From a virus (taxonomy: Duplodnaviria; Caudoviricetes): a DNA stretch of 58,892 nt. The number at the start of each line of letters is the position of its first letter. Position 1 is the stretch's first letter. A model generated the notes under the pieces. That model was not told where the DNA came from and did not search any database. It saw only the letters and a list, made by a program, of their open reading frames with translations. A program made the translations under genes and the position numbers. Location: positions 1 to 58,892 of IMG/VR virus record IMGVR_UViG_3300007516_000020; one strand, 5' to 3'. Below are positions 5,391 to 19,728 of the stretch, piece by piece.

Positions 5391-5416
5391 GTTCGTCTTT
5401 ATTATGGGGTGATGTG

Positions 5417-7318: not shown

Positions 7319-7392
7319 GGGGCCATCGTCCAATAGGAAGATAGCTGAATGGCATTCAGCAGACGAGGGGGCGGTACCCTCTGGCTCCACCA
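7319..7392 (+). tRNA. tRNA-Ala(GGC)
   Basis: cloverleaf, G3:U70, CCA; T-loop GGCGGTA. Confidence 0.85.
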
Positions 7393-7399
7393 CAAATAT

Positions 7400-7475
7400 G
7401 CGCTGGTACTCTAACTAGCAAGGGGCCCACCCGATAAGTGGGAATATGTGAGTGCAAATCTCACCCGGCGCACCA
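7400..7475 (+). tRNA. tRNA-Ile(GAT), C33
   Basis: cccac-cc GAT aa-gtggg; CCA. Confidence 0.85.
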
Positions 7476-7482
7476 AGCGTAT

Positions 7483-7556
7483 ATGGGATAAGTGTTACAG
7501 CAGCACAGTAGTCTCCAAAACTACGGGCGCAGGTGCGACTCCTGCATCCCATGCCA
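7483..7556 (+). tRNA. tRNA-Trp(CCA)
   Basis: gtagt-ct CCA aa-actac; G73 CCA. Confidence 0.9.
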
Positions 7557-7574
7557 AAAGAAGAGGAATGTATC

Positions 7575-8102
7575 ATGTTGTCAATGACTTTGTTACTCAA
7601 CACCACCTATGAACCTATCCAGGTCGTTGGTTGGCAGCGAGCGATTACCCTGTTGTTTCAGGGAAAGTGTGAAGTCCTTGAGGAACACGATGAAGAAATC
7701 CATTCGATTTCTTTCACGATGAAGATTCCTTCAGTACTCAGAATGTTGATGCCAGCAAGGATCAAGCGTAAGGTCCCAGTGAAGTTCACCAGGTTGAACA
7801 TCTTTACGCGAGACGGTTGGAAGTGTCAATACTGCGGCGACAAGTTTTCCAGCAATGAATTGACTTTCGACCATGTTGTTCCTGTGACTCAGGGTGGCCG
7901 TAAAAGTTGGGAAAACATCACGACCGCGTGCGTGGACTGTAACTCTCGGAAGGCTGGGCGTACTCCTCAGCAAGCAGGAATGAAGCTCTTGAAGAAGCCC
8001 AAGCAGCCTATGTGGTCACAAGTAATCACTGTTACCGCGGGGCTACGAAAGACCCCTGATAACTGGGCATCATACTTGTACTGGAATGTTGAGCTGACAT
8101 AA
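7575..8102 (+). CDS. HNH endonuclease (McrA-like)
   Basis: RDGWKCQYCG, TFDHVVP, WENITTACVDCNSRK. Confidence 0.9.
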   Translation: MLSMTLLLNTTYEPIQVVGWQRAITLLFQGKCEVLEEHDEEIHSISFTMKIPSVLRMLMPARIKRKVPVKFTRLNIFTRDGWKCQYCGDKFSSNELTFDHVVPVTQGGRKSWENITTACVDCNSRKAGRTPQQAGMKLLKKPKQPMWSQVITVTAGLRKTPDNWASYLYWNVELT

Positions 8103-8107
8103 ATCCT

Positions 8108-8197
8108 GTGGAGTGGTGTAAACACCAAGCACGATAAACGCAGAGGGGAAGACCCTCAAATGCGGGATAAGTAGGAGTCTAGAAATCTCCTCTCCAC
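8108..8197 (+). ncRNA. tRNA-like structured RNA without CCA
   Basis: gtggag/ctccac closing stem plus three hairpins. Confidence 0.45.
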
Positions 8198-8209
8198 TGA
8201 AAATAGTTC

Positions 8210-8238
8210 TTGACAAACGGTTCGGAATTTGTTATAGT
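8210..8238 (+). promoter_or_regulatory. sigma70-type promoter
   Basis: TTGACA-17-TATAGT. Confidence 0.7.
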
Positions 8239-8267
8239 AAGAGAGTGAGATAAGAAATTGAGAGTTT

Positions 8268-8343
8268 GCCGCTGTGAGTCAGATAGTTGATTGCCTCTCT
8301 TGTAAGGAGGATTAGGCTGGTGCAAGTCCAGTCAGCGGCTCCA
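8268..8343 (+). tRNA. tRNA-Thr(TGT)
   Basis: cctct-ct TGT aa-ggagg; CCA. Confidence 0.88.
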
Positions 8344-8560
8344 TTGTTGATAGGCAATCCAACGTAGTGTTGGATGGGACGCCAGGGAAAGTGCCACGTG
8401 CAACTCTTTCCCAGTCAGCGGCTCCATTGTTGATAGGCAATCCAACGTAGTGTTGGATGGGACGCCAGGGAAAGTGCCACGTGCAACTCTTTTCCGGTCA
8501 GCGGCTCCATTGTTGATAGGCAAACCAACGTAGTGTTGGATGGGACGCCAGGGAAAGTGC
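8331..8560 (+). repeat. 83-bp tandem repeat (about 2.8 copies) beginning with the tRNA-Thr 3' end
   Basis: gtcagcggctccattgttgatagg starts at 8331, 8414, 8497. Confidence 0.92.
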
Positions 8561-8653
8561 AACTCTTTCAGACCCTATCGAATAGCGCGGAAATGGGTGT
8601 AGCGCGATACAAATAGCCCGTACATTTTCCTCTTGAGAAACAGAGGATCGATT

Positions 8654-8728
8654 GTGATCGTAGCATAAGTAGTAATGCGCTAGTTTGTGGCACTAGTTAA
8701 GAGGGTGCAAGTCCCTTCGATCACCCCA
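8654..8728 (+). tRNA. tRNA-His(GTG)
   Basis: ctagt-tt GTG gc-actag; C73; -1 base is T. Confidence 0.88.
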
Positions 8729-8758
8729 TAGCCAATCATGACGATTGGCACGAAGCAT

Positions 8759-8808
8759 GATAGCATCCACCTGAGACGTGGACTGTGAGCAACAGGGAAA
8801 CTGCTATC
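8759..8808 (+). ncRNA. unidentified three-way-junction RNA with CTGAGAC loop
   Basis: gatagca/tgctatc, tccac/gtgga, ctgt/acag. Confidence 0.4.
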
Positions 8809-8815
8809 GATATAC

Positions 8816-8891
8816 GGGCCCTTAGCTCATTCAGGAGAGCGCCGCACTTGCAATGCGGAGGTGGTCGGAGCAAAGCCGACAGGGTCCACCA
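8816..8891 (+). tRNA. tRNA-Ala(TGC)
   Basis: ccgca-ct TGC aa-tgcgg; G3:U70. Confidence 0.9.
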
Positions 8892-8950
8892 TAAAGTCCT
8901 GGTAGGGATTTAGAAGGCAGAATATCGGGACCAGAATTTTGAGAAAATAT

Positions 8951-9025
8951 CTAGGTGTGGGTCAATGGCAGACCACTCGGTTTGGGGCCGAGACCATGCA
9001 GGTTCGAGTCCTGTCACCTAGACCA
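8951..9025 (+). tRNA. tRNA-Pro(TGG)
   Basis: ctcgg-tt TGG gg-ccgag; C1:G72. Confidence 0.92.
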
Positions 9026-9097
9026 CTAACTCGGCACAATCGCTATTGTGCGATGCCCCCACGGTTCGGTGGGGTTAGAGTGCCGGCACTAAAATAC

Positions 9098-9172
9098 GCT
9101 CCCATCGAATACTGGCTAGTTCATCTGGCTTTCAACCAGAAAAAGAGAGATCGATACTCTCTGGGAGCACCA
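9098..9172 (+). tRNA. tRNA-Glu(TTC)
   Basis: tctgg-ct TTC aa-ccaga. Confidence 0.88.
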
Positions 9173-9183
9173 TTAGAATAGAC

Positions 9184-9261
9184 GCCGGCGTGAAGGGAAT
9201 TGGTATACCTGTTTGGTCGAGAGCCAGACGCTTGTGGGTTCGACTCCCACCGACGGCACCA
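9184..9261 (+). tRNA. tRNA-Leu(GAG), short variable loop, C33
   Basis: tttgg-tc GAG ag-ccaga; Leu-type D-loop GGTATAC; A73; one acceptor mismatch. Confidence 0.7.
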
Positions 9262-9271
9262 AAAGAATTAT

Positions 9272-9347
9272 AGCGGGTGGATGGGGATAGTTCTCCTATT
9301 GGGCTCATAACCCGATGTCCGTAGTGCAATTCTACGACCCGCAACCA
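9272..9347 (+). tRNA. initiator tRNA-fMet(CAT)
   Basis: three G:C pairs in anticodon stem; 1:72 mismatch. Confidence 0.85.
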
Positions 9348-9355
9348 CATAGTAC

Positions 9356-9429
9356 TGCGGTAAGCACAAGCGTAGCAGAACGATTTCATAAGTCGTTTCT
9401 AGAGGGTGCGACTCCCTCTACCGCAACCA
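9356..9429 (+). tRNA. tRNA-Met(CAT) elongator (Ile2 not excluded)
   Basis: acgat-tt CAT aa-gtcgt; weak D-stem. Confidence 0.75.
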
Positions 9430-9436
9430 ACTTTGT

Positions 9437-9513
9437 GCGCCTGTAGCCCAACGGCAGGAGGCGACGGTCTTAGAAGCCGTACAGTACAGGTTCAAATCCT
9501 GTCAGGCGCACCA
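9437..9513 (+). tRNA. tRNA-Leu(TAG), short variable loop
   Basis: acggt-ct TAG aa-gccgt. Confidence 0.88.
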
Positions 9514-9525
9514 TAATAGAATTAT

Positions 9526-9600
9526 GGGTTGCAAGCTTTCAAAGTGAAGCTCCCGGCTTTTAACCGGAGGAACTCGGCGCGATACCGAGGCGACCCACCA
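9526..9600 (+). tRNA. tRNA-Lys(TTT)
   Basis: ccgg-ct TTT aa-ccgg; T-loop CGCGATA. Confidence 0.85.
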
Positions 9601-9673
9601 ACGAATTGCTCAGTGTACGAGTCAATGGAAGTTGTTTTGATGTCTTTGACTCAGATACGAAGCACGAATTTAG

Positions 9674-9740
9674 CGAGGCTCTACAATTACTGAGACACCG
9701 TAGAGCGTAAAGGGAAATGGAGTTAGTAATTTCCCCCTCG
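9674..9740 (+). ncRNA. unidentified junction RNA with CTGAGAC-containing loop
   Basis: cgag/ctcg, gctctac/gtagagc, gggaaat/atttccc. Confidence 0.4.
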
Positions 9741-9749
9741 TAAAGTCAC

Positions 9750-9839
9750 GCACCCGCGCCTTGATAGGCAGAGGGGCCTTATAAGCCCGTCGCTCTAGAT
9801 CAGAGCCTTGACTGGGTTTGATTCCCAGCGGGTGTACCA
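9750..9839 (+). tRNA. non-canonical long-variable-arm tRNA with UAU anticodon (allo-tRNA-like)
   Basis: gggc-ct TAT aa-gccc; V-arm gctct/agagc; 4-nt D-loop; folds as 7/5 or 8/4; CCA. Confidence 0.75.
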
Positions 9840-9859
9840 TACATATAAAGGGGATGCTC

Positions 9860-10072
9860 ATGAAGGTCAAGGACAGAAACTTAAAAGTTTTGGTCGATGT
9901 AGCCGAGAAAGGTTGTCAGGGGTTCAAGTGCTACTGGCCGCGCCCAGACCCAGGCGTCTTCACTCAAGGCTCTGGATATCGGTCCCGCGACCCATCTGGC
10001 AAAACCAAGCCCGGTTGGTTGTGCGGCACCCGAGAAATACGTGGTTGCCCGGACAATCCTGTACCACGATAG
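9860..10072 (+). CDS. small Cys-containing hypothetical protein
   Basis: AAGGGG RBS; part of ORF 9818..10072. Confidence 0.5.
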   Translation: MKVKDRNLKVLVDVAEKGCQGFKCYWPRPDPGVFTQGSGYRSRDPSGKTKPGWLCGTREIRGCPDNPVPR

Positions 10073-10145
10073 ATGACCCGAAACACAGGGATTCTGGTGT
10101 ACACAAGTGTACACATTAGAATTCTCTAATGTTGAAGAAAAGCCC

Positions 10146-10173
10146 TTGACTTATTTCCTCGTTATGCTATAAT
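10146..10173 (+). promoter_or_regulatory. sigma70-type promoter
   Basis: TTGACT-16-TATAAT with TGn. Confidence 0.7.
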
Positions 10174-10186
10174 TAGAGCATAGGGA

Positions 10187-10402
10187 ATGGAGAACAAGAT
10201 GACTGAGAACAAAAATAGGAACATCATCATTGCCCAGTTCACCAACCACGATGATGCAATGACCGCATTCGTTGTTGAGTCGTTTCTAGGTGGATACGGT
10301 GTCTCCCTTCGCGACGACGACTCCGGCGAGTTCGTCGGATTCGCGATCCACGGCATCAAGAGCTTAGGGACCGCGATTGCTAAGGCGAAGGAAGTGCTTT
10401 AA
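10187..10402 (+). CDS. hypothetical protein
   Basis: promoter upstream; start 10187 or 10199. Confidence 0.65.
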   Translation: MENKMTENKNRNIIIAQFTNHDDAMTAFVVESFLGGYGVSLRDDDSGEFVGFAIHGIKSLGTAIAKAKEVL

Positions 10403-10462
10403 ATAAGGCTTGTATTAGTGATAACGTAGTCTATAGTGTTTTCAACGCAAAGGAGACTTATA

Positions 10463-10738
10463 ATGGAAATGTCAGAGCATGAATTGGTGACGGTCTCGAC
10501 GCCTGGTGGGGACCTACATTATCGCCTGCACGATGGCGAGATTGTTCAACAATGGGTCGAGGGAGAGGGAGAGTGGGTGGATCAAACCAGTAGTGGGCCG
10601 AAAGATGAAGTGGCATTGACCCAACTCTCGGTGACTCCTGGCCATGTATTTTACGCGACGAGGTTCGGGGAACGGTGGCAGTGGGTTCAGACGACAGAAC
10701 AGTGGATGATGGTCACCGGCAAACATATTTCGGCGTGA
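10463..10738 (+). CDS. hypothetical protein
   Basis: AAGGAG RBS. Confidence 0.65.
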   Translation: MEMSEHELVTVSTPGGDLHYRLHDGEIVQQWVEGEGEWVDQTSSGPKDEVALTQLSVTPGHVFYATRFGERWQWVQTTEQWMMVTGKHISA

Positions 10739-10752
10739 AGAGACTCAATAAC

Positions 10753-10836
10753 GGAGGTATAGTCTCGTACGGCGCGAGGGCTGGCTGTAAACCAGTTGTT
10801 AATACCCAGAGGGTTCGATTCCTTCTACCTCCACCA
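10753..10836 (+). tRNA. tRNA-Tyr(GTA)
   Basis: gctgg-ct GTA aa-ccagt. Confidence 0.88.
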
Positions 10837-10845
10837 TAATGCCAA

Positions 10846-10929
10846 TAGTCACTGTGAAGAGACTCAAGAGTAGTAGCATACCGCGGGGAAGGCATGGGGG
10901 AGGACCTGGTTCAATTCCAGGCATGACTA
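10846..10929 (+). ncRNA. tRNA-like RNA or pseudo-tRNA with intact T-arm, no CCA
   Basis: tagtca/tgacta closing stem; cctgg-ttcaatt-ccagg. Confidence 0.45.
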
Positions 10930-11060
10930 CATAAGATCAGATATCTTGTAGGCATATAAGATGTACAGCGTGTAGGCATACAAGCTGTGTGGCGTGTACA
11001 GCCGTGATCGGAGTAGTCATGGAGTATGATGGATTGTATACCCCTGTATTTTGGAGTCAG

Positions 11061-11204
11061 ATGAAAGTTTACAAGAAGAAGCGCCGAAGTTGCCCAATGT
11101 GCAAACCAAATAAGATGGGGATAGAGCCCTGTTGGACAGCGAAGGATCTTGATAGACTGAAGCGAATGGAAAAGGAAGCGAGAGAAATAAAGAGAACAGA
11201 TTAG
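11061..11204 (+). CDS. small basic protein with CxxC (RSCPMCKP)
   Basis: GGAG RBS; 3' part of ORF 10989..11204. Confidence 0.5.
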   Translation: MKVYKKKRRSCPMCKPNKMGIEPCWTAKDLDRLKRMEKEAREIKRTD

Positions 11205-11210
11205 AAATAT

Positions 11211-11286
11211 GCACTCGGAGCCTGTAGGATGGGCGCTTGATTGTCAATCAAGAATAAAGCGGGATCGTTACCCGTCGAGTGCGCCA
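11211..11286 (+). tRNA. tRNA-Asp(GTC)
   Basis: cttga-tt GTC aa-tcaag; G73. Confidence 0.85.
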
Positions 11287-11290
11287 TGAT

Positions 11291-11364
11291 GTCGATGTAG
11301 CCAAGGGGATTGGCACCGGTCTGCAAAACCGTTTACGTTGGTTCGATTCCAACCATCGACTCCA
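11291..11364 (+). tRNA. tRNA-Cys(GCA)
   Basis: cggt-ct GCA aa-accg; U73. Confidence 0.9.
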
Positions 11365-11372
11365 TACAATAC

Positions 11373-11447
11373 GCACTGCAAGCATTAGTGGTGATGCTTC
11401 CGGCTCTTAACCGGAAGAACCGAGTTCGACTCTCGGGCGGTGCACCA
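11373..11447 (+). tRNA. tRNA-Lys(CTT)
   Basis: tccgg-ct CTT aa-ccgga. Confidence 0.9.
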
Positions 11448-11450
11448 TAT

Positions 11451-11524
11451 AGGGATATCGTCTAATAGCAAGACAACAGGCTTTGAACCTGTGAACCTAG
11501 GGGCGGTACCTAGTATCCCTTCCA
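11451..11524 (+). tRNA. tRNA-Gln(TTG)
   Basis: acagg-ct TTG aa-cctgt; T-loop GGCGGTA. Confidence 0.85.
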
Positions 11525-11535
11525 TAGAGGTTATC

Positions 11536-12048
11536 ATGACAGTCTTTTTGACAGCGGATACACATTTCGGCCACGCGGGTATCTGTACATTCTTGAATGC
11601 AGATGGAACGAAAGTGCGACCCTGGACTGATGTTGCCGAGATGGATGAAGAGTTGGTCAAGCGGTGGAATGAAGTCGTAAAGCCAACAGACAAAGTGTAT
11701 CACCTGGGCGATGTGGTGATCAGCCGAAAGGCACTAGCGATCCTGGGTCGTTTGAATGGGGACAAGGTACTTATCAAGGGAAATCATGACATCTTCAAGG
11801 TGTCTGACTATCTGAAGTATTTTCGTGATATCCGTAGTTACCATGTGACGGATAAGCTGATTTTATCGCATATCCCTATTCACCCCGATAGCAAAGGTCG
11901 CTTTCGTGGAAATGTTCATGGACACTTGCATGGGCGAGCATTAGAGGATACGTGGTATCAGTGTGTATGTGTTGAGCATACAGATTATCGACCAATTGCT
12001 TTTGAGGAGATTCAAAGAAGGACTAACAAAGGAATTATTGCGGATTAG
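11536..12048 (+). CDS. calcineurin-like metallophosphoesterase
   Basis: DTHFGH, HLGDV, KGNHD, SHIP, HGHLH; stop lies inside next tRNA. Confidence 0.9.
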   Translation: MTVFLTADTHFGHAGICTFLNADGTKVRPWTDVAEMDEELVKRWNEVVKPTDKVYHLGDVVISRKALAILGRLNGDKVLIKGNHDIFKVSDYLKYFRDIRSYHVTDKLILSHIPIHPDSKGRFRGNVHGHLHGRALEDTWYQCVCVEHTDYRPIAFEEIQRRTNKGIIAD

Positions 12049-12112
12049 CCAAACGGCCAGGCAGTGGACTCTGAATCCACCTAACAAGGTTCGACTCCTT
12101 GATCCGCAACCA
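12039..12112 (+). tRNA. tRNA-Gln(CTG)
   Basis: gtgga-ct CTG aa-tccac; U1:A72. Confidence 0.9.
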
Positions 12113-12129
12113 AATATCGCAGAATGTAT

Positions 12130-12207
12130 TCCGGTCTAGCATTCAGGGTGAGTGCGCTCCGCTGTTAACGGAGAACGAGCCAGGTTCGATCCCTGGGACC
12201 GGAGCCA
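12130..12207 (+). tRNA. tRNA-Asn(GTT)
   Basis: ctccg-ct GTT aa-cggag; G73. Confidence 0.9.
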
Positions 12208-12211
12208 ACAT

Positions 12212-12285
12212 GCTCCTATAGCACAATGGTAGTGCGACCGCCTGAAGAGCGGTACACCGAGGTTCGATTCCTCGTGGGAGCGCCA
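12212..12285 (+). tRNA. tRNA-Phe(GAA)
   Basis: accgc-ct GAA ga-gcggt. Confidence 0.88.
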
Positions 12286-12292
12286 AGAGAAT

Positions 12293-12367
12293 GCGGGTGT
12301 GGCAGAATGGTTTTGCACTTCCTTGCCAAGGAAGACTACGCGGGTTCGATCCCCGCCACCCGCTCCA
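12293..12367 (+). tRNA. tRNA-Gly(GCC)
   Basis: cttcc-tt GCC aa-ggaag; U73. Confidence 0.92.
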
Positions 12368-12544
12368 TTAGAGATCCAGGGCGTAGGAAAGTCGCCCCTC
12401 AAGAAACAATAGAGAAAATTCGACAAGGTGTTTTGAAATATAATGCGGGTTTGGTATAGAAGCTGTGCCTCAGCCTTCCAAGCTGAAGAGGCCGTTGCGA
12501 GTACGGCAACCCGCTCCATTAGAGATCCAGGGCGTAGGAAAGTC
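12358..12544 (+). repeat. 36-bp direct repeat (12358-12393 and 12509-12544): Gly 3' end, spacer, Pro 5' end
   Basis: acccgctccattagagatccagggcgtaggaaagtc twice. Confidence 0.9.
12445..12518 (+). tRNA. tRNA-Gly(TCC)
   Basis: tcagc-ct TCC aa-gctga; U73. Confidence 0.85.
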
Positions 12545-12605
12545 TGGTTGATCCTCTCCCCTCGGAAGGGAGAAATCGGTGGTTCAAATCCACCCGCCCT
12601 GACCA
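12528..12605 (+). tRNA. tRNA-Pro(CGG)
   Basis: ctccc-ct CGG aa-gggag; C1:G72; A37. Confidence 0.9.
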
Positions 12606-12634
12606 AAATGAGTGCTTGACATTGATATACTATT

Positions 12635-12709
12635 GCCCTGTAAGACTAGAAAGCGAGTTGCCTGTTTCGTAAGCAGGAGAGAACGATGCAAGTTCGTTAC
12701 GGGGCTCCA
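12635..12709 (+). tRNA. tRNA-Thr(CGT)
   Basis: cctgt-tt CGT aa-gcagg. Confidence 0.82.
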
Positions 12710-12715
12710 TTATAT

Positions 12716-12792
12716 GCTGGTGTAGACCAAGGGCAGAGTCACCAAACTTAAAATCTGGACAAGTGCAGGTTCGATTCCTGTCACCAGCACCA
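12716..12792 (+). tRNA. tRNA-Leu(TAA), short variable loop
   Basis: ccaaa-ct TAA aa-tctgg. Confidence 0.82.
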
Positions 12793-12796
12793 ATAC

Positions 12797-12873
12797 GCCG
12801 AAGTGATGCAACTGGCAGACATGGCTGATTCAAAACCAGTCTCTTGTGGGTTCGACTCCCACCTTCGGCACCA
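12797..12873 (+). tRNA. tRNA-Leu(CAA), short variable loop
   Basis: gctga-tt CAA aa-ccagt; GGCAGAC D-loop. Confidence 0.82.
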
Positions 12874-12918
12874 ATGCGTAGATTAGAGTAGGTTTTCTCC
12901 GCAAAATAGAAAGGAAAA

Positions 12919-13198
12919 TAGGACAACTAAACCATCACAAGTCTTACGACTTGAGGAACTTCGGGACACCAAGAACAGGACAGTGGCTAACGACCACCCA
13001 GAGTAATCTGAGGATTAGAGCCACAGTGACGATGCCGCGCAAGCGGAGTGAAACGAGCAATCTCTGTCCGGTGCAACTCCAAATAGGCTGGTGTGCTGTT
13101 CGCACAAGACCCAGCGGGTAGGAGGCTTGAGGGTATCAGTAATGATACTCCTAGAGAAATGATGGTTCACGACAGAATCCCGGGTATCGGTTGTCCTA
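12919..13198 (+). ncRNA. rnpB: RNase P RNA, compact bacterial type A
   Basis: P1 taggacaac/gttgtccta; P2 aaccatca/tgatggtt; GAGGAACTTCGGGA pairs with ACAGAATCCCGGGT (P4); GCCACAG; GTGAAACG; CAAATAGG; CGGGTAG; P6 gaaca/tgttc; P18. Confidence 0.92.
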
Positions 13199-13206
13199 CA
13201 ATTTAC

Positions 13207-13281
13207 GCCCTCAAAGAATAGATAGCGATTCGCCACCTTGGTAAGGTGGATAGACCGGCGCAAGTCCGGTTGAGGGCTCCA
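13207..13281 (+). tRNA. tRNA-Thr(GGT)
   Basis: ccacc-tt GGT aa-ggtgg. Confidence 0.87.
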
Positions 13282-13289
13282 TGAAATAC

Positions 13290-13364
13290 GCACCGCGAGC
13301 CGGTTGAATAGGCACCTGCCCTACAAGCAGATTCAAAGAGGTTTGATTCCTCTGCGGTGCACCA
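13290..13364 (+). tRNA. tRNA-Val(TAC), C33
   Basis: ctgc-cc TAC aa-gcag. Confidence 0.82.
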
Positions 13365-13441
13365 TGAGGTTGCAATGACACGCAACCAGACCGAAGTGTT
13401 ACTAGAAGATATGTTTCAGTGCGCGGCCGTAAAGAAATAAT

Positions 13442-13518
13442 GTCCCTGTGGTCCAGATGGAAAAGACGCCTCCCTGCGAAGGAGGAGATCGGTGGTTCAA
13501 GTCCACCCAGGGACACCA
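13442..13518 (+). tRNA. tRNA-Arg(GCG)
   Basis: cctcc-ct GCG aa-ggagg; A20. Confidence 0.88.
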
Positions 13519-13643
13519 TAAGAAAGGAACGTGATTGGACGTTCCTATTTTGATCGGGGATCTATGTTTGCTTTTACATTGCTGTTCTTATATGAGTTTT
13601 TTCTGTTTAGGCAAGCAGCAAAGTACTACGGTATGAAATAGAG

Positions 13644-13731
13644 GGAAGATTGGCAGAGAGGCCTATTGCGCTGGTTTGCTAAACCATGCGGGGTAACACC
13701 CACGAAGGTTCGAATCCTTCATCTTCCGCCA
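13644..13731 (+). tRNA. tRNA-Ser(GCT)
   Basis: long V-arm, G73, tt GCT aa. Confidence 0.92.
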
Positions 13732-13737
13732 TGTTTT

Positions 13738-13825
13738 GGAAGGTTCACCGGACAGGCGCGCCGGGACCGTCTCGAAAGCGGATCGAGGGTAACACCTTGG
13801 GGATCAAGACCTCAGCCTTCCGCCA
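13738..13825 (+). tRNA. tRNA-Ser(CGA)
   Basis: long V-arm, G73, ct CGA aa. Confidence 0.85.
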
Positions 13826-13842
13826 TTGTTATGAAAGGATAT

Positions 13843-14196
13843 ATGTCTCTTTTTGATGTTCTTGGTAATCCTAATAAGACTCCTGTCATATCCGCGGCCG
13901 TGGAATTGTACGCTGAGAGGTTGGAGGAACAAAATCATCGAGTGAAGATATTCGACACACCAAAGGGATTGTGTATGTCGTGTTACATGTCGCACATTTA
14001 TCGGTCACCGAAACTCGAAGGTGGGAACTGGCATATCACTTGTACGGTTCCCAAAGGACCATCACTCATTATGCCCGACGATATCTCTTACTGCAATCGC
14101 TTCGAGAAGAAGGGTGAACAGACACTTGATGATATGAAGCGGGTAGCAAGACTCATTGAAAAAGAAGATGGGAAAAAGGTTGGATTCACGGCATAA
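13843..14196 (+). CDS. hypothetical protein with CxxC (possible Zn-binding)
   Basis: AAGGA RBS; 3' part of ORF 13666..14196. Confidence 0.65.
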   Translation: MSLFDVLGNPNKTPVISAAVELYAERLEEQNHRVKIFDTPKGLCMSCYMSHIYRSPKLEGGNWHITCTVPKGPSLIMPDDISYCNRFEKKGEQTLDDMKRVARLIEKEDGKKVGFTA

Positions 14197-14199
14197 TAT

Positions 14200-14287
14200 G
14201 GAAGAGTGACCGAGAGGCTAATGGTGCTCGCTTGGAAAGCGATGCGGTGTAACAGCCACGCAGGTTCAAATCCTGTCTCTTCCGCCA
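14200..14287 (+). tRNA. tRNA-Ser(GGA)
   Basis: long V-arm, G73, tt GGA aa. Confidence 0.92.
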
Positions 14288-14297
14288 TAATTAGTGC

Positions 14298-14326
14298 TTG
14301 ACATTCTTAGTCAGTTTGTGTATAAT
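14298..14326 (+). promoter_or_regulatory. consensus sigma70 promoter abutting tRNA-Ser(TGA)
   Basis: TTGACA-17-TATAAT. Confidence 0.7.
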
Positions 14327-14327
14327 T

Positions 14328-14417
14328 GGAAGTGTAATCAGGCGAGCGTACTGGGACCGCCTTGAAAGCGGATCGGCGGTGAAAGCCGTTGGGGTGCAAG
14401 TCCTCACACTTCCGCCA
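14328..14417 (+). tRNA. tRNA-Ser(TGA)
   Basis: long V-arm, G73, ct TGA aa. Confidence 0.87.
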
Positions 14418-14750
14418 TTTTATATGAAGGATGTGTTGTGTCTAATCTATTGTGGCTAGCCCTGGGTCTGTTGGTATGGTGTAAGAGGAAACCCATGTTG
14501 AAATTGAAATTTGAATTGTCCGATGAGGACTGGAAAAAGGTTAATCGGTTCATACGAAAACAGGACAAGCTCACTGGCACCGGCGCAAATTATGGAGCGA
14601 TTGGTGGAGGTTATACCTACCAATTTACACCTACCTCGTTGGGGGTCATAGTCAAAGTTGAGAATTGTGTGACAAAGGCATCCATCAATCTGACAGATTT
14701 TGATAGCTGGTAACAGCGTTGGGGTGCAAGTCCTCACACTTCCGCCATTT
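14387..14750 (+). repeat. 34-bp direct repeat of tRNA-Ser 3' end (14387-14420, 14717-14750) flanking one ORF
   Basis: cgttggggtgcaagtcctcacacttccgccattt twice. Confidence 0.92.
14495..14713 (+). CDS. conserved phage hypothetical protein (GAIGGGYTYQFTPTSLG)
   Basis: GAGG RBS; motif common in phage ORFs. Confidence 0.7.
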   Translation: MLKLKFELSDEDWKKVNRFIRKQDKLTGTGANYGAIGGGYTYQFTPTSLGVIVKVENCVTKASINLTDFDSW

Positions 14751-14811
14751 GGATAATTATGGAAGTTGTAGTCACATCGGGGTTGTGGTTTGAGAGATAG
14801 AATCATAATTT

Positions 14812-15155
14812 GGGGGTGAATTAGGTATCGACAGAGGCGTATAGAGAAGAACGGACATGCCGTGGACCAGGACCACGTAAATACTTGGAAAAACCAGAAA
14901 TGCCGAACAAGAGTTTGCATTAGCGGCATAAACGCCGCTCTCTGAAAGACCAAGAGGCTCCTGTAGGTCTGGAAGGGTCATTCATTGGAGGCACAGTGAT
15001 AAAGGCTAGCATGGTAGAGTGTTAGCTGAGTGTCAATCTACCACAGATCATATAAGGTGTCAGTCCCTTATGTGAGCGTTGTAAGACTGACTAGCATGGA
15101 ATATCCACTTTGACGTTGCTTTTGGACCCGGGTGCAACTCCCGGCACCTCCACCA
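14812..15155 (+). ncRNA. ssrA: tmRNA; tag reading frame 14902-14931 encodes AEQEFALAA*
   Basis: GGGGGTG/CACCTCC-ACCA with G3:U; 5' GGTATCGAC; 3' GGACCCGGGTGCAACTCCCGG; ALAA-ending tag. Confidence 0.95.
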
Positions 15156-15238
15156 ATTCATTCGCTCGACTGCCATGTGTAGGAAATGGGCATACGAGAG
15201 GGACCCTCAAGACTTCAGATTGGGGTCCCAGCTTTTAC

Positions 15239-15312
15239 GCTCCCATAGATTATTAGTAGATCGCTGGATTCTCAATCCAGAGAGCCGGGGGCAGTACCCG
15301 GTGGGAGCACCA
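15239..15312 (+). tRNA. tRNA-Glu(CTC)
   Basis: ctgga-tt CTC aa-tccag. Confidence 0.87.
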
Positions 15313-15318
15313 AAATAT

Positions 15319-15394
15319 GTCCCTGTGGGCCAACTGAAAGGTCACCCGCCTTCTAAGCGGGATTATGCGAGTTTGAGTCTCGCCGGGGACACCA
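15319..15394 (+). tRNA. tRNA-Arg(TCT)
   Basis: cccgc-ct TCT aa-gcggg. Confidence 0.87.
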
Positions 15395-15463
15395 AAGTAT
15401 ATTATGAGATTGACAGAAATCAAGCGCGAATTCAGAGGTTCAAACTGGAATGAAAGAATAAAC

Positions 15464-15538
15464 GCCGCTGTAGCCTAGTGTACAGGCACCTGCCTCCTAA
15501 GCGGGATAACGTGGGTTAGATTCCCACCAGTGGCACCA
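15464..15538 (+). tRNA. tRNA-Arg(CCT)
   Basis: cctgc-ct CCT aa-gcggg. Confidence 0.87.
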
Positions 15539-15544
15539 CATAAC

Positions 15545-15622
15545 CTCCCTGTGATGGCAATTGGACGCCGACCGCGCTTCGAACGCGGGATTATGTAGGT
15601 TCGAATCCTATCAGGGAGACCA
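15545..15622 (+). tRNA. tRNA-Arg(TCG)
   Basis: ccgcg-ct TCG aa-cgcgg. Confidence 0.85.
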
Positions 15623-15626
15623 TTAC

Positions 15627-15700
15627 AGACCCTTAGTACATTAGCAGTATCCCGCCCCGACACGGCGGAGAGGACAGGGCAGAACTGTCAGGGTCTACCA
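15627..15700 (+). tRNA. tRNA-Val(GAC), C33
   Basis: ccgcc-cc GAC ac-ggcgg. Confidence 0.82.
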
Positions 15701-17221: not shown

Positions 17222-17250
17222 TTGACAACGTGCCTAGACTCTGTTATACT
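17222..17250 (+). promoter_or_regulatory. sigma70-type promoter
   Basis: TTGACA-17-TATACT with TGn. Confidence 0.75.
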
Positions 17251-17256
17251 TATAAC

Positions 17257-18195
17257 ATGATGAGAACACACATAGTGAATATGGTTTTCGGTTCCCACCT
17301 CTACGGCACGTCAAGCCCTTTGTCCGATAAGGACTACAAGGGCGTCTTTGTGCCTACCACCGACGAAATGCTATTGGGAAGATTCCCTAAGTCTATCAAT
17401 GAGTCCACGAAACTAAACTCAGGCGAAAAGAACACCGCCGCTGACACAGATAAGGAAACGTATTCCCTTCACTACTTCTTGGAATTGGCCAGGAAGGGTG
17501 AGACTGTGGCACTTGATATGCTTCATGCTCCAAAATCAGCGTGGGTGTCGCATAGCTGGCATTGGGAATATCTTGTTGCCAACAGACAAAAATTCTACAC
17601 CAAAAACCTTTCATCCTTGGTTGGTTATGCGCGGAAGCAATCGGCAAAGTATGGGGTGAAGGGAAGTAGACTTGCGGAAGCTAAGACTGTGTTGTCGCTT
17701 CTTGAAGCTACATTCTCAGGGGTCAAGGTGTCTGATATTGTGACACTTCTTCCTGTGGGTGAGCATTGTGGTATGATGACTGGGAATGGGGTCACGTTCT
17801 ATCAAGTGTGTGGAAAGAAATTGACTCTCAATGCCCTTGCTTCTCACTATGTCCCTATGATGGAAAAGTTTGTCAAGGAATATGGGGATCGGGCGAAGCA
17901 AGCAGAGGCGAACATGGGTGTGGACTGGAAAGCTGTGAGCCATGCTTTTCGTGCCGCCTATCAAGTTCGTGCGATCTTGCGAGATGGGGATTTCACCTAT
18001 CCATTATCTGAGACTGAGTTTATTCGTGCGGTGAAGTCGGGTACGCTGAACTTCAAGACTGAAGTGGGACCTAAGCTTGATGAACTGATGGATGAAGTTG
18101 AAAAACTATCCTCAGAATCAACTCTTCCCGAAGAAGTGAGTGGTGAGTTTGTTGATGCGGTGCTGTTGCACCTTGTAAAGAATACGGAGTTATAA
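17257..18195 (+). CDS. Pol-beta-superfamily nucleotidyltransferase (RlaP / T4 NrdC.11-like)
   Basis: FGSHLYGTSSPLSDKDYKG; DWKAVSHAFR. Confidence 0.8.
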   Translation: MMRTHIVNMVFGSHLYGTSSPLSDKDYKGVFVPTTDEMLLGRFPKSINESTKLNSGEKNTAADTDKETYSLHYFLELARKGETVALDMLHAPKSAWVSHSWHWEYLVANRQKFYTKNLSSLVGYARKQSAKYGVKGSRLAEAKTVLSLLEATFSGVKVSDIVTLLPVGEHCGMMTGNGVTFYQVCGKKLTLNALASHYVPMMEKFVKEYGDRAKQAEANMGVDWKAVSHAFRAAYQVRAILRDGDFTYPLSETEFIRAVKSGTLNFKTEVGPKLDELMDEVEKLSSESTLPEEVSGEFVDAVLLHLVKNTEL

Positions 18196-18196
18196 A

Positions 18197-19324
18197 ATGA
18201 GAGAGAAGAAATTTCCTACGTTGTATGGTTTGTCCTCAAGTGGCGTGGTCAAGTCTTGGAAGATTTGGGTCGCCGAATTTCCTCTGGATACGGCGATTTT
18301 TGTCGAACATGGTCAGTTGGATGGCAAGAAACAATTGTCGCCTGAGAAGATCCGTGAGGGAAAGAACCTCGGCAAGGCGAATGAAACCTCGCACTTCGAA
18401 CAGGCTTGCCTTGAGGCAGAATCGAAGTGGAAGAAGAAGCATGACGCAAACTACACCGAGAATAAGCCAGAAACTCAGGAAGCCGCAGCGTCTTCTCCAA
18501 AGCTGTTGCCGATGTTGGCGCAGAAGTACAAGGAACGCAAGCATAAGATTGTCTGGCCTGCGTTTGGGCAACCTAAGCTGAACGGTGTTCGCTGTCTCGT
18601 GGAACGGAAGAATGGGAAGATCACTTACTGGTCAAGGAAAGCCAAGCAGTATAAGAATTTCAATCTGTTCATGGATCAAGAATTCCTGAGTTTCATGAAG
18701 GATGGTGATATCCTTGACGGTGAGATGTACAATCACGGAGATATCACATTCCAAGAATTGATGTCACTGATCAAGGATGAAAAGACTCCTGATATCGAAA
18801 AACTGAAGCGCTATGTGTCTTTTAATTGCTATGATTGTCCTAGTGTGCCGGGTGGGTTCAACACACGTTTCATGAACTGGCCAGCCCCGCTCAACCTACA
18901 GTATTTCGCAAAGGTGGTGTCCTACAAGTTGAATGATGAACTTGAGATGCTGGCCCTTCACAAGAGAGTGACCGAGCAAAATTATGAAGGCACAATGGTG
19001 CGGTCAGGTGGAGATGAAGCATACAATTTCCAGTATCGTGACAATCAATTGCAGAAGTACAAGGATTTCTTAGATGATGAATTCAAGATCGTGGGCTGCA
19101 AAGAAGGCACAGGGAAGGATGAAGGTAAGGCGATTTTCCGCTGCATAATTAAGAGTGGAAAGGAATTCGATGTTCGTTGTAAGGGTGCCGATGAAGTCAG
19201 AATCGAGCAATGGCAGAATCGGAAGTCCTACATGGGTAAGGAATTGACGGTTCGCTATCAGACTCTCAGCGATGATGGAATTCCAATTTTCCCCGTTGGT
19301 ATCACTGTGCGAGACTATGAATAG
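18197..19324 (+). CDS. ATP-dependent DNA ligase
   Basis: PMLA, QPKLNGVR, LDGEMY, YEGTMVR, KYKDF, OB-domain GIPIFP. Confidence 0.9.
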   Translation: MREKKFPTLYGLSSSGVVKSWKIWVAEFPLDTAIFVEHGQLDGKKQLSPEKIREGKNLGKANETSHFEQACLEAESKWKKKHDANYTENKPETQEAAASSPKLLPMLAQKYKERKHKIVWPAFGQPKLNGVRCLVERKNGKITYWSRKAKQYKNFNLFMDQEFLSFMKDGDILDGEMYNHGDITFQELMSLIKDEKTPDIEKLKRYVSFNCYDCPSVPGGFNTRFMNWPAPLNLQYFAKVVSYKLNDELEMLALHKRVTEQNYEGTMVRSGGDEAYNFQYRDNQLQKYKDFLDDEFKIVGCKEGTGKDEGKAIFRCIIKSGKEFDVRCKGADEVRIEQWQNRKSYMGKELTVRYQTLSDDGIPIFPVGITVRDYE

Positions 19325-19526: not shown

Positions 19527-19728
19527 AAGTTACTTCCCCATTCCCTTTGACCGATGGTATACCGAGAATCTGCCTGATATTCGTCGTGAGTTTAGCAAAG
19601 ATGGTCTGGATAAATTGAGGAATAGTCCAGAAAAGTTTGCTGCCTTGTTATACACTCTCAGGGTGGAGCACGATCAGAAGCGATGGACCAATTACTTGCA
19701 GTTTGTTGAGGATAATTATGTCGTATAA
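19516..19728 (+). CDS. hypothetical protein
   Basis: overlapping operon spacing. Confidence 0.55.
   Translation: MLTKSYFPIPFDRWYTENLPDIRREFSKDGLDKLRNSPEKFAALLYTLRVEHDQKRWTNYLQFVEDNYVV

What the first reader, a model, noticed from the sequence alone, without database searches (positions are those of the whole stretch)
12919..13198. Phage-encoded minimal RNase P ribozyme with compensatory change in catalytic P4
Seen: about 280 nt with P1-P12, P15-P18 and the P6 pseudoknot (gaaca/tgttc), apparently lacking P13, P14 and P19. The conserved GAGGAAAGUCC/CCCGGCUU is replaced by GAGGAACUUCGGGA/UCCCGGGU, retaining pairing and the bulged U. J11/12 reads AGAGCCACAGUGACG versus the usual AGUGCCACAGAAA. 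No RnpA gene lies in the window. Known: J11/12 and J12/13 T-loops contact the tRNA elbow. Inference: a ribozyme co-adapted to the altered elbows of the surrounding tRNAs, borrowing or sequestering host RnpA.
Basis: partly seen in the sequence, partly recalled or inferred. Interest (0 to 1): 0.8.

Follow-up and report, generated by a model that had tools for sequence, protein, structure and literature searches.

The report
Phage-encoded RNase P ribozyme gene
A large freshwater bacteriophage carries its own copy of the RNase P ribozyme, the RNA enzyme that trims transfer RNAs, set inside its cluster of about 30 tRNA genes, and related copies occur in other large phages, which matters because this enzyme was thought to be supplied only by cells.

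Summary
Observation confirmed. Window 12919-13202 (+) is a full-length bacterial type A RNase P RNA (Rfam RF00010, 180.7 bits, cut-off 100). It sits in a T4-like myovirus fragment, inside an array of about 30 tRNA genes plus a tmRNA. It is not a host remnant. Nine distinct relatives keep 98.3% of paired cells and show two-sided changes at 40 of 83 pairs, including P4 and P6. Two relatives are complete 168-kb phage genomes with terminal repeats. No RnpA gene was found in the window or in 11 other whole viral records searched. Nine further IMG/VR contigs, eight in tRNA arrays, also carry rnpB. The missing P13/P14 is not a phage invention: bacteria of one order ('Burkholderiales'-titled) have the same short S-domain and are the nearest relatives in the tree. 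The phage-specific feature is a U.G wobble beside the bulged catalytic U in P4: 13 of 18 phage rows, 0 of 129 other rows, 0 of 401 genomes. Co-adaptation to odd tRNA elbows is not supported. No published report was found. Expression and activity are untested.

The parts
12919..13202 (+). rnpB: phage-encoded bacterial type A RNase P RNA, 284 nt (P1 ends at 13198)
   Evidence: RF00010 at 180.7 bits, model positions 1-367. Covariation across 9 distinct relatives. MFE z-score -3.5.
12958..12966 (+). P4 5' strand ACUUCGGGA; bulged U at 12961; U at 12960 forms the U.G wobble (E. coli position 68, numbering recalled)
   Evidence: 8 pairs, 100% paired in 9 distinct sequences, 4 pairs covary. The U.G is restricted to phage copies.
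13178..13185 (+). P4 3' strand UCCCGGGU, preceded by the conserved ACAGAA (13172-13177)
12973..12977 (+). P6 5' strand GAACA; pairs with the L17 loop UGUUC at 13097-13101
   Evidence: GAACA/UGUUC versus GAGCA/UGCUC in relatives.
13017..13055 (+). Reduced specificity-domain core: J11/12 (AGAGCCACAGUGACGA), a 12-nt P12 hairpin (13035-13046), and AGUGAAACG. P13 and P14 are absent.
   Evidence: 81 model positions against 23 nt. The same layout occurs in bacterial L378-L395.
13115..13121 (+). L15 CGGGUAG with the GGU that pairs with the tRNA 3'-RCCA
   Evidence: Invariant in 12 of 12 aligned phage sequences. Role taken from a passage of PMC11143913. All 27 window tRNAs encode CCA.
13131..13150 (+). 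P18 with a GUAA tetraloop
   Evidence: one C-G to G-C compensatory pair in relatives.
12797..12873 (+). tRNA-Leu(CAA), 45 nt upstream of rnpB; conserved neighbour
13207..13281 (+). tRNA-Thr(GGU)-like gene with T-loop CGCAAGU and encoded CCA, 8 nt after P1. An RNase P cut at its 5' end would make the 3' end of rnpB.
   Evidence: Cloverleaf MFE. Present with covarying acceptor stems in 9 of 10 related loci. Missed by ARAGORN and Rfam.
13290..13364 (+). tRNA-Val(UAC) with a U56/A19 elbow
   Evidence: ARAGORN at lowered threshold.
7319..15622 (+). tRNA array (about 30 tRNA genes) holding rnpB and the tmRNA (14812-15155)
10146..10173 (+). Sigma-70-like promoter (11 of 12, extended -10). It is the nearest one upstream of rnpB on the + strand, so it is the putative start of the polycistronic tRNA-rnpB transcript.
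   Evidence: consensus match only. No other + strand site before 14298.
13525..13546 (+). Terminator-like hairpin after tRNA-Arg(GCG)
   Evidence: consensus match only; the number of terminator-like sites is not above shuffles.

Best explanation
The element is a working phage-borne rnpB gene: the catalytic RNA subunit of RNase P.

How it is made. It is transcribed as one cistron of the phage's polycistronic tRNA transcript. The tRNA-processing machinery then cuts it out: 3' processing of tRNA-Leu upstream, and an RNase P cut at the 5' end of tRNA-Thr 8 nt downstream.

How it works. It folds into the type A core and most likely assembles with the host's RnpA protein, since the phage encodes none. 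It then cleaves the 5' leaders of the phage's roughly 30 CCA-encoding pre-tRNAs and the tmRNA. This raises or secures RNase P capacity during infection.

Where it came from. The gene was captured from a bacterium whose RNase P RNA naturally lacks P13/P14, and the nearest bacterial rows belong to a 'Burkholderiales'-titled order. It has since diverged inside phages, including changes in P4.

Shown: identity, phage location, conservation and covariation, absence of RnpA, and synteny with tRNAs. Inferred: expression, the maturation route, use of host RnpA, catalytic activity, and the benefit to the phage.
For: Identity. RF00010 matches at 180.7 bits over the whole model.

Phage location.
- The window has T4-like baseplate and tail genes, RNase H and RtcB.
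- Relatives G001 (168,076 b) and G002 (168,789 b) have direct terminal repeats and 100% CheckV completeness, and each holds one rnpB. G001 has a terminase.
- The same DNA lies in contigs of further freshwater runs: X2 covers rnpB in pieces, apart from a 10-base gap at 12957-12966, and X3 covers its first 117 nt, both with 0 differences.

Selection on structure. In 9 distinct sequences 98.3% of cells are paired, against 34-44% when partners are slid. Two-sided changes occur at 40 of 83 pairs, against 4-7 when slid. P4 is 100% paired with 4 covarying pairs, and P6 covaries.

Functional residues kept.
- The bulged U, the J3/4 GAGGAA, the GCAA of J5/15, the L15 GGU and the ACAGAA are invariant in 12 of 12 aligned phage sequences.
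- The AA bulge in the P10/11 3' strand and the bulged A in P9 are also kept.
- The roles of these residues come from passages of PMC11143913 and PMC9433436.
- All 27 window tRNAs encode CCA, which matches a CCA-reading L15.

No RnpA. There were 0 PF00825 matches over the cut-off in the window and in 11 other whole viral records searched, four of them rated 100% complete.

Synteny.
- tRNA-Leu - rnpB - tRNA-Thr is found in 9 of 10 related loci.
- In jumbo-type contigs the neighbouring tRNA lies 4-6 nt from rnpB: both sides in L403, the upstream side in L404 and L406.
- No promoter-like site lies between 10173 and 14298 on the + strand.

Context. The array is flanked by RNA-repair genes: RNA ligase, RlaP, RtcB.

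Origin. The phage rows form one clade (support 89/94) beside L384 (89/94), then L385, L395 and two Pseudomonadota MAGs (99/91). These share the S-domain layout.
Against: - There is no expression or activity evidence of any kind.
- The U.G wobble and the C-G pair replace the two base pairs next to the bulged catalytic U in a helix described as well conserved (PMC11143913 passage). This could lower or alter catalysis.
- Use of host RnpA rests only on the absence of a recognisable phage RnpA. The host is unknown, so compatibility cannot be judged. An unrecognised phage protein cofactor is not excluded.
- The window itself is only 35% of a genome.
- Promoter and terminator calls are consensus matches only, and terminator-like sites are not enriched.
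- The tRNA-Thr-like gene that would define the 3' end is not called by ARAGORN or Rfam, and its fold z-score is only -1.73.
Confidence: 0.72

Rival explanations
1. One reading: the ribozyme's J11/12 and J12/13 T-loops are co-adapted to the A18/G55 elbows of the surrounding phage tRNAs, which the host enzyme would handle poorly.
For: - Of 27 window tRNAs, 6 (plus the tRNA-Thr-like gene) have G55 with A18, and two or three have covarying 19-56 pairs.
- The window and the L117 group have ACAGUGA in J11/12, which was seen in 0 of the 90 bacterial rows where the motif could be read.
- G55 tRNAs occur in several members of the 168-kb clade.
Against: - In the window 19 of 27 tRNAs are canonical.
- L089 has the J11/12 form ACAGAGA, which 20 of 94 bacterial rows share, yet it carries 4 G55 tRNAs among 30 plus the G55 tRNA-Thr.
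- Six jumbo-type contigs with phage-type rnpB have 81 of 81 canonical T-loops.
- The S-domain stacks on the outer G19-C56 pair without reading sequence (PMC4919913 and PMC9433436 passages), and the A18/G55 tRNAs keep G19 and C56.
- The contact residues (the CA of J11/12 in the window, the AA bulge, the bulged A of P9) are unchanged.
Confidence: 0.06
2. Decoy: the RNA is catalytically weak or dead. Its job would be to soak up host RnpA, or pre-tRNAs, and so shut down host tRNA maturation.
For: - The phage has no RnpA of its own.
- P4 deviates next to the catalytic U.
- The protein-binding core (J18/2, ACAGAA) is strongly conserved.
Against: - A decoy would not need the L15 GGU, the P6 pseudoknot, the S-domain T-loop strands or the bulged U. 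Yet L15, the bulged U and most of the T-loop strands are invariant, and P6 and the helices covary, across divergent phages.
- The phage's own ~30 tRNAs need RNase P, so blocking the enzyme would hurt the phage.
Confidence: 0.07
3. The RNA works without host RnpA, either as an RNA-alone ribozyme or with an unrecognised phage-encoded protein. The P4 U.G change would adapt it to that mode.
For: - No PF00825 match over the cut-off was found in any of the 12 whole viral records searched, the window's included.
- The U.G wobble is confined to phage copies: 13 of 18 phage rows against 0 of 129 others.
- Many phage ORFs near the arrays have no family.
Against: - Nothing points to a specific phage cofactor.
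- The regions that bind RnpA in bacterial holoenzymes are as conserved as in bacteria (binding site from a PMC9433436 passage).
- Five of 18 phage rows keep G-C at this pair.
Confidence: 0.12
4. Passenger or artefact: a host rnpB fragment carried along by mis-assembly or provirus boundary error, or a decaying pseudogene.
For: IMG/VR does contain such cases. Of 15 loci scanned, 12 hold host-like rnpB (11 at 316-335 bits, 1 truncated), most of them at contig ends beside a single tRNA.
Against: - The window copy lies 12.9 kb from one contig end and 45.7 kb from the other, among phage genes on both sides.
- Relatives lie inside complete terminal-repeat genomes.
- Covariation shows selection on the fold.
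- The locus is recovered in other runs.
Confidence: 0.02

Closest known systems
Bacterial type A RNase P RNA (Rfam RF00010), specifically the short P13/P14-less form in genomes of the order of G004 (record title 'Burkholderiales bacterium' MAG), e.g. L384, L385, L378
   Same: - Full type A core.
- The same S-domain layout: a short P12, ACAGAGACGAG and GUGAAACG.
- Similar length: 291-326 nt against 284-332 nt.
- Some of the same P4 variants occur: the 71-356 flip and A74-U353 in L384, and G67-C359 in L390 and L392-L394.
- Nearest rows in the tree.
   Different: - Encoded by a virus inside a tRNA array, not as a single chromosomal gene.
- Shorter P3.
- A U.G wobble at the pair next to the bulged U, seen in 0 of 129 non-phage rows and 0 of 401 genomes of that phylum.
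- No rnpA partner gene in the same genome.
tRNA arrays and tmRNA genes of large and huge phages (Al-Shayeb et al. 2020, PMC7162821; megaphages in PMC8172020)
   Same: Large phages that bring translation-related RNAs (many tRNAs and a tmRNA) clustered together. The window has both.
   Different: The passages read of those papers list tRNAs, tmRNA and protein factors but no RNase P RNA. PMC8172020 section 11 states that Rfam found only tRNAs and a tmRNA in its megaphages. Their supplements were not seen.
Phage T4 tRNA cluster processed by host RNase P (reviewed in PMC11143913)
   Same: A T4-like phage with closely spaced polycistronic tRNA genes that depend on RNase P cleavage. Spacers are short, a few nucleotides.
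   Different: T4 relies wholly on the host enzyme, and several of its tRNAs lack encoded CCA (passage). Here the phage supplies the catalytic RNA, and all 27 tRNAs encode CCA.
Organelle-encoded rnpB genes (plastid/cyanelle and mitochondrial) - recalled; only a search listing of PMC6330054 was seen
   Same: A reduced genome keeps the RNA subunit, while the protein partner is encoded elsewhere. In mitochondria the transcript is punctuated by tRNAs.
   Different: Organelles descend from cells that always had the gene. Here a virus acquired it. The comparison rests on recall and was not tested.

Membership tests
Bacterial RNase P RNA class A (Rfam RF00010) | Covariance-model score above the curated gathering score over the full model | tested here: met
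   180.7 bits against 100, model positions 1-367, E 8.8e-57. All 21 related phage loci scanned scored 118-255 bits.
Bacterial RNase P RNA class A (Rfam RF00010) | P4 long-range helix with a bulged U, flanked by GAGGAA (J3/4) and ACAGAA (J2/4) | tested here: met
   8 pairs plus the bulged U. 100% paired in 9 distinct sequences, with 4 covarying pairs. The base identities at two pairs differ from the consensus.
Bacterial RNase P RNA class A (Rfam RF00010) | P6 pseudoknot between J5/7 and L17 (type A, not type B) | tested here: met
   GAACA/UGUUC, with GAGCA/UGCUC in relatives.
Bacterial RNase P RNA class A (Rfam RF00010) | L15 internal loop with the GGU that pairs with the 3'-RCCA | tested here: met
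   CGGGUAGG is invariant in 12 of 12 aligned phage sequences. All 27 window tRNAs encode CCA.
Bacterial RNase P RNA class A (Rfam RF00010) | Stacked P13 and P14 helices in the S-domain (named as the type A hallmark in PMC1874661, passage) | tested here: not met
   43-46 model positions are deleted in all members of the 168-kb clade, and 81 are replaced by 23 nt in the window. But chromosomal rnpB genes of one bacterial order lack them too, so this feature does not exclude membership.
Bacterial RNase P RNA class A (Rfam RF00010) | S-domain T-loop strands (J11/12, J12/13), the bulged A of P9 and the AA bulge that bind the tRNA T-arm and elbow | tested here: met
   ACAG..ACGA, GUGAAACG, UCUG-A-G and GCAAUC are all present in the window. 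Their roles come from passages of PMC9433436 and PMC11143913.
Bacterial RNase P RNA class A (Rfam RF00010) | Endonucleolytic 5' maturation of pre-tRNA; assembly with RnpA | not testable with these tools
   No RNA data: no RNA holder was listed.
Phage auxiliary translation-RNA module (tRNA array + tmRNA) | Location inside a bona fide phage genome, among tRNA genes on the same strand | tested here: met

The most novel reading that the evidence does not exclude
Large phages carry a distinct, phage-adapted lineage of RNase P ribozymes. Its hallmark, a U.G wobble directly beside the bulged catalytic U of P4, would be an adaptive retuning of the active-site metal pocket or of holoenzyme assembly. 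This would give the phage an RNase P activity that works under infection conditions, or escapes a host control, when the host enzyme does not. The change appears in the 168-kb group, in the jumbo group, and in a jumbo phage (L400) whose rnpB groups with Bacteroidota-type RNAs and keeps P13/P14. That spread would make it recurrent rather than inherited.
Probability: 0.25. Interest if true: 0.9.

Novelty: new variant of a known kind. Interest (0 to 1): 0.8.

Why it matters
RNase P is one of the two universal ribozymes and is treated as a strictly cellular or organellar enzyme. In every paper I could read, phages appear only as a source of substrates. A virus-encoded catalytic subunit, conserved in complete phage genomes and lacking its protein partner, would have several consequences.

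- It extends the known reach of viral takeover of translation from tRNAs, tmRNA and ribosomal proteins to tRNA maturation itself.
- It offers natural hybrid holoenzymes (phage RNA with host protein) for studying how RNA and protein subunits fit together.
- It provides a set of natural P4 variants at the two base pairs next to the catalytic metal site, positions that are almost invariant in cells. This turns a long-studied question, how far the base identity of P4 matters for catalysis, into a direct comparative and biochemical experiment.
- The short S-domain and tRNA-punctuated layout also give a compact ribozyme of 284 nt.

Tried and rejected
Steps that led nowhere or were dropped:

1. An exact scan of IMG/VR for the window's P4 5' 15-mer gave 84 stretches. 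None was RNase P-like by blastn, so they are chance hits.

2. blastn of the window rnpB and of L101's rnpB against 50,697 GenBank phage records found no match. The tmRNA matched only 35 nt of an Alcaligenes phage. Divergent copies would escape blastn.

3. Expression. The look-up of sequencing runs listed no RNA holder, so nothing can be said either way.

4. Origin.
   - The first quick tree placed the clade beside Bdellovibrionota and Bacteriovoracaceae rows, with a long-branch warning. I dropped this after adding nine more phage rows and running a careful search.
   - I considered an independent capture of L400's rnpB from a Bacteroidota-type donor. The careful tree favours it (99/81). But the AU test does not reject a single clade of all 18 phage rows (lnL 21.2 lower, p 0.238).
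   - On the quick tree the constrained topology was actually better by 54.8 lnL. The quick trees should therefore not be trusted, and the number of captures is open.

5. Terminase PF03237 was found in G001 only, not in four jumbo-type records. Their viral nature rests on IMG/VR's class, terminal repeats (G091), CheckV figures and a few PHROG hits near rnpB.

6. The tRNA-Thr-like gene got no ARAGORN call even at the lowered threshold, and no Rfam tRNA match at E <= 1. I keep it on fold plus conservation.

7. I did not build my own covariance model, because a ~300-position model exceeds the stated calibration limit. I did not use the structure or complex predictors, since they handle proteins only.

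9. Literature. Searches found no report of a phage- or virus-encoded RNase P RNA. I read passages of PMC11143913, PMC8172020 (section 11 in full), PMC7162821, PMC10690425, PMC1874661, PMC2996960, PMC4919913 and PMC9433436. Supplementary tables, for example those of PMC7162821 and PMC10690425, were not seen and could list such hits. Subscription papers are outside the library.

10. The counts of phage copies come from four sequence patterns, not from a full covariance-model scan of IMG/VR, so they are lower bounds. The bacterial comparison set is biased: rows share the J15/18-J18/2 pattern, or come from one order or one phylum.
Full report
**What is there.** Rfam's bacterial class A RNase P model (RF00010) matches window 12919-13202 on the + strand. 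The match covers the whole model (positions 1-367) at 180.7 bits, against a gathering score of 100, with E 8.8e-57. The same scan finds a tmRNA at 14812-15155 (119.3 bits) and 25 tRNAs. ARAGORN finds 27 tRNAs plus the tmRNA, all on the + strand between 7400 and 15622.
- P1 and P2 close the molecule.
- P3 is a 6-bp hairpin.
- P5, P7, P8, P9 (GUAA loop with a bulged A) and P10/11 are present.
- P12 is reduced to CCGC-GCAA-GCGG.
- P13 and P14 are missing: 81 model positions are replaced by 23 nt.
- P15-P17 and P18 (GUAA loop) are present.
- There is no insert at the P19 site.
- The 284-nt RNA folds better than all 200 shuffles (z -3.5).

**It lies in a phage.** The window is an entire IMG/VR virus record, linear, with a CheckV estimate of 35% complete.
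- It encodes T4-type baseplate wedge and tail proteins and RtcB.
- It also encodes T4 RNase H, a Clp protease, an RNA ligase, an RlaP-family nucleotidyltransferase and an ATP-dependent ligase.
- Its gp6-like protein hits 2,421 GenBank phage records, all below 60% identity. The best is Pelagibacter phage HTVC008M at 40.3%.
- The locus 11200-15700 is held by three freshwater metagenome runs of 2017, one of which may be the source. Contigs of X2 cover rnpB in pieces with no differences, apart from a 10-base gap (12957-12966) that falls on the P4 5' strand. A contig of X3 covers its first 117 nt, also with no differences.

**Relatives and selection.** Four pattern scans recovered related copies.
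- A pattern from the P15-P18 region found 16 IMG/VR stretches. All 15 that were scanned hold RF00010. Eleven score 316-335 bits and one is truncated; these look like host genes at provirus or contig edges. Three score 191-208 bits, are 312-330 nt long, and lie inside tRNA arrays with a tmRNA: L089, L090 and L101.
- The one metagenome scan added eight more loci of this kind, all at 176-194 bits.
- L090 and L101 lie in records of 168,076 and 168,789 bases with direct terminal repeats and 100% completeness. Each has exactly one rnpB and no PF00825 (RnpA) match at E <= 10.

I wrote the window's helices, including the P4 and P6 pseudoknots, onto the 12-sequence alignment (9 distinct rows).
- 98.3% of 746 cells form standard pairs, against 34-44% when partners are slid by 1-3 columns.
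- 40 of 83 pairs show changes on both sides, against 4-7 when slid.
- 0 of 500 shuffles reach the observed values.

This is the signature of an RNA kept under selection for the RNase P fold. It rules out a decaying passenger.

**P4.** The numbering below is E. coli numbering, recalled.

| Source | 5' strand (66-74) | 3' strand (353-360) |
|---|---|---|
| Rfam consensus and most bacterial rows | AAGUCCGGG | CCCGGCUU |
| Window | ACUUCGGGA | UCCCGGGU |

The window keeps A-U at 66-360 and the bulged U. It has C-G in place of A-U at 67-359, U.G in place of G-C at 68-358, a flipped G-C at 71-356, and A-U at 74-353. Across the clade the pairs 67-359, 68-358, 73-354 and 74-353 all vary with pairing kept in every sequence.

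Part of this variation also occurs in bacteria.
- The 71-356 flip with A74-U353 is common in gut- and rumen-type metagenome rows and in Bacteroidales-titled MAGs.
- The same variant occurs in L384.
- G67-C359 occurs in 4 of 18 fetched genomes of one order.

What I found only in phage copies is U at position 68.
- 13 of 18 phage rows have it.
- 0 of 129 other rows have it.
- 0 of 401 genomes of the phylum of G004 match a pattern that requires it. The same pattern finds 4 of 4 phage records.

The helix is described as well conserved, and the bulged U as binding the catalytic metal (passage of PMC11143913).

**The 'minimal' S-domain is inherited.** Two 'Burkholderiales bacterium' MAGs have 326-nt rnpB genes in which the 43 model positions of P13/P14 are replaced by 1 nt. 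Their J11/12 reads ACAGAGACGAG.
- In a sample of 81 genomes of that order, 78 have a match, and 14 of those hits are 291-326 nt long. One counted genome, G033, is unpublished and was not used further.
- 18 rnpB genes were fetched from that sample (291-355 nt): 13 of the short ones plus five of 344-355 nt. Sixteen matched the ACAGAGACGAG motif. L384 and L395 show AACAGAGACGAG and AGCAGAGACGAG in the alignment. Seventeen of the 18 matched GUGAAACG; L384 reads UUGAAACG. The six shown in the alignment have a P12 as short as the window's.
- In the careful IQ-TREE of 149 rows, the 17 phage rows other than L400 form one clade (UFBoot/SH-aLRT 89/94). The next row is L384 (89/94), followed by L385, L395 and two Pseudomonadota MAGs (99/91).

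So the gene was most likely captured from a bacterium of this kind. A freshwater habitat fits, but the host is not identified.

**Wider occurrence.** Two further IMG/VR scans found nine more contigs with RF00010 at 118-255 bits.
- Eight lie inside tRNA arrays: L396, L397, L400, L401 and L403-L406. L399 has no tRNA nearby.
- Their records are 58-360 kb. G091 (299,875 b) has terminal repeats and is rated complete.
- None has RnpA over the cut-off.
- L400 keeps P13/P14, groups with Bacteroidota-type rows (99/81) and still has the U.G wobble. However, a single clade of all 18 phage rows is not rejected (p-AU 0.238), so the number of captures is open.
- I did not verify the viral nature of these jumbo-type contigs beyond IMG/VR's class, CheckV and a few PHROG hits.

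**How it is probably made and used.** rnpB has no promoter-like site of its own. The nearest sites on the + strand are at 10146-10173 and 14298-14326 (consensus matches only).
- tRNA-Leu(CAA) ends 45 nt upstream of rnpB.
- A cloverleaf with anticodon GGU and an encoded CCA starts 8 nt after P1, at 13207-13281. It is conserved with covarying acceptor stems in 9 of 10 related loci. ARAGORN and Rfam do not call it.
- In three jumbo-type loci the neighbouring tRNA sits 4-6 nt from rnpB: on both sides in L403 and on the upstream side in L404 and L406.

The simplest model is therefore a tRNA-punctuated precursor in which RNase P itself creates the 3' end of its own RNA.

All 27 window tRNAs encode CCA, and the L15 GGU that reads CCA is invariant. 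The T-arm and elbow contact residues are kept. With no rnpA in complete relatives, assembly with host RnpA is the most economical inference. Neighbouring RNA-repair genes (RNA ligase, RlaP, RtcB) suggest a phage that defends and supplies its own tRNA pool. Expression, activity and the cofactor are all untested.

**The elbow hypothesis.** Six of 27 tRNAs have G55 with A18, and two Arg tRNAs and tRNA-Val have covarying 19-56 pairs. The link to rnpB does not hold, for four reasons.
- Most tRNAs in the array are canonical.
- Clade members with a J11/12 form that is common in bacteria also carry G55 tRNAs.
- Six jumbo-type arrays with phage-type rnpB have 81 of 81 canonical T-loops.
- Structural papers describe elbow recognition as stacking on G19-C56 that is not sequence specific.

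**Novelty.** Nine full-text searches and passages of eight papers, including a 2024 RNase P review and two huge-phage papers, gave no report of a virus-encoded RNase P RNA. One paper states that Rfam found only tRNAs and a tmRNA in its megaphages. Supplements and subscription journals were not visible. I rate this a new variant of a known kind: a known ribozyme family in a new carrier, with a phage-restricted change in its catalytic helix.

Noticed in passing
window 7400-15622 (e.g. tRNA-Ile 7400-7475, Trp 7483-7556, His 8654-8728, Ala 8816-8891, Met 9272-9347, Gly-UCC 12445-12518): Six of 27 phage tRNAs replace the G18-U55 tertiary pair by A18 with G55 (T-loops UGCxAxx). tRNA-Arg(UCU) at 15319-15394 has U56 with A19, and tRNA-Arg(CCU) at 15464-15538 has A56 with U19, so the outer elbow pair covaries. 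Similar tRNAs occur in related phages.
   Followed up: partly
window 13207-13281: A conserved tRNA-Thr(GGU)-like cloverleaf with T-loop CGCAAGU and encoded CCA. ARAGORN (even at lowered threshold) and Rfam (E <= 1) both miss it. It is present in 9 of 10 related loci with compensatory acceptor-stem changes.
   Followed up: partly
window 13290-13364; 9526-9600; 11451-11524; 13738-13825; 7319-7389: Extra tRNA genes seen only at a lowered ARAGORN threshold or only by Rfam: Val-UAC, Lys-UUU, Gln-UUG, Ser-CGA, and an unnamed Rfam tRNA at 7319-7389. The array probably holds more than 30 tRNAs.
   Followed up: no
window 12909-12915: A GAAAGGA motif 3-8 nt upstream of the rnpB 5' end is conserved in all ten related loci. 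It looks like a Shine-Dalgarno sequence, but no ORF follows. It may be a processing or protein-binding signal.
   Followed up: no
window 5357-5974, 17230-18195, 18197-19324, 19637-20908: An RNA-repair gene set flanks the array: RNA ligase (PF09414), RlaP nucleotidyltransferase (PF10127), ATP-dependent ligase, and RtcB (404.7 bits). It may be a counter to tRNA-cleaving host defences.
   Followed up: partly
window 14298-14326 and 14812-15155: A perfect 12-of-12 sigma-70-like promoter lies about 490 nt upstream of the phage tmRNA, whose tag peptide is AEQEFALAA.
   Followed up: no
window 7533-8102: An HNH endonuclease ORF sits between tRNA genes inside the array. Homing-endonuclease-like ORFs also lie near rnpB in the jumbo-type locus L405.
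   Followed up: no
L405 11470-12119 (IMG/VR record of 359,890 b): The RF00010 match here spans 650 nt at only 118 bits, which implies a large insertion inside this phage rnpB. It could be an intron or an expansion, but it was not examined.
   Followed up: no
L400 10022-10397 (IMG/VR record of 299,875 b, terminal repeats): A jumbo-phage rnpB with a full P13/P14 S-domain (255 bits) groups with Bacteroidota-type RNAs. Yet it has the same P4 as L090 (AGUUCGGGG/CCCCGGCU).
   Followed up: partly
L086-L100 (IMG/VR): Twelve IMG/VR records (plus L100, not Rfam-scanned) carry canonical rnpB genes at 316-335 bits, most of them at a contig end next to one tRNA. These are probably host DNA at provirus borders, and they are a trap for any census of viral rnpB.
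   Followed up: partly
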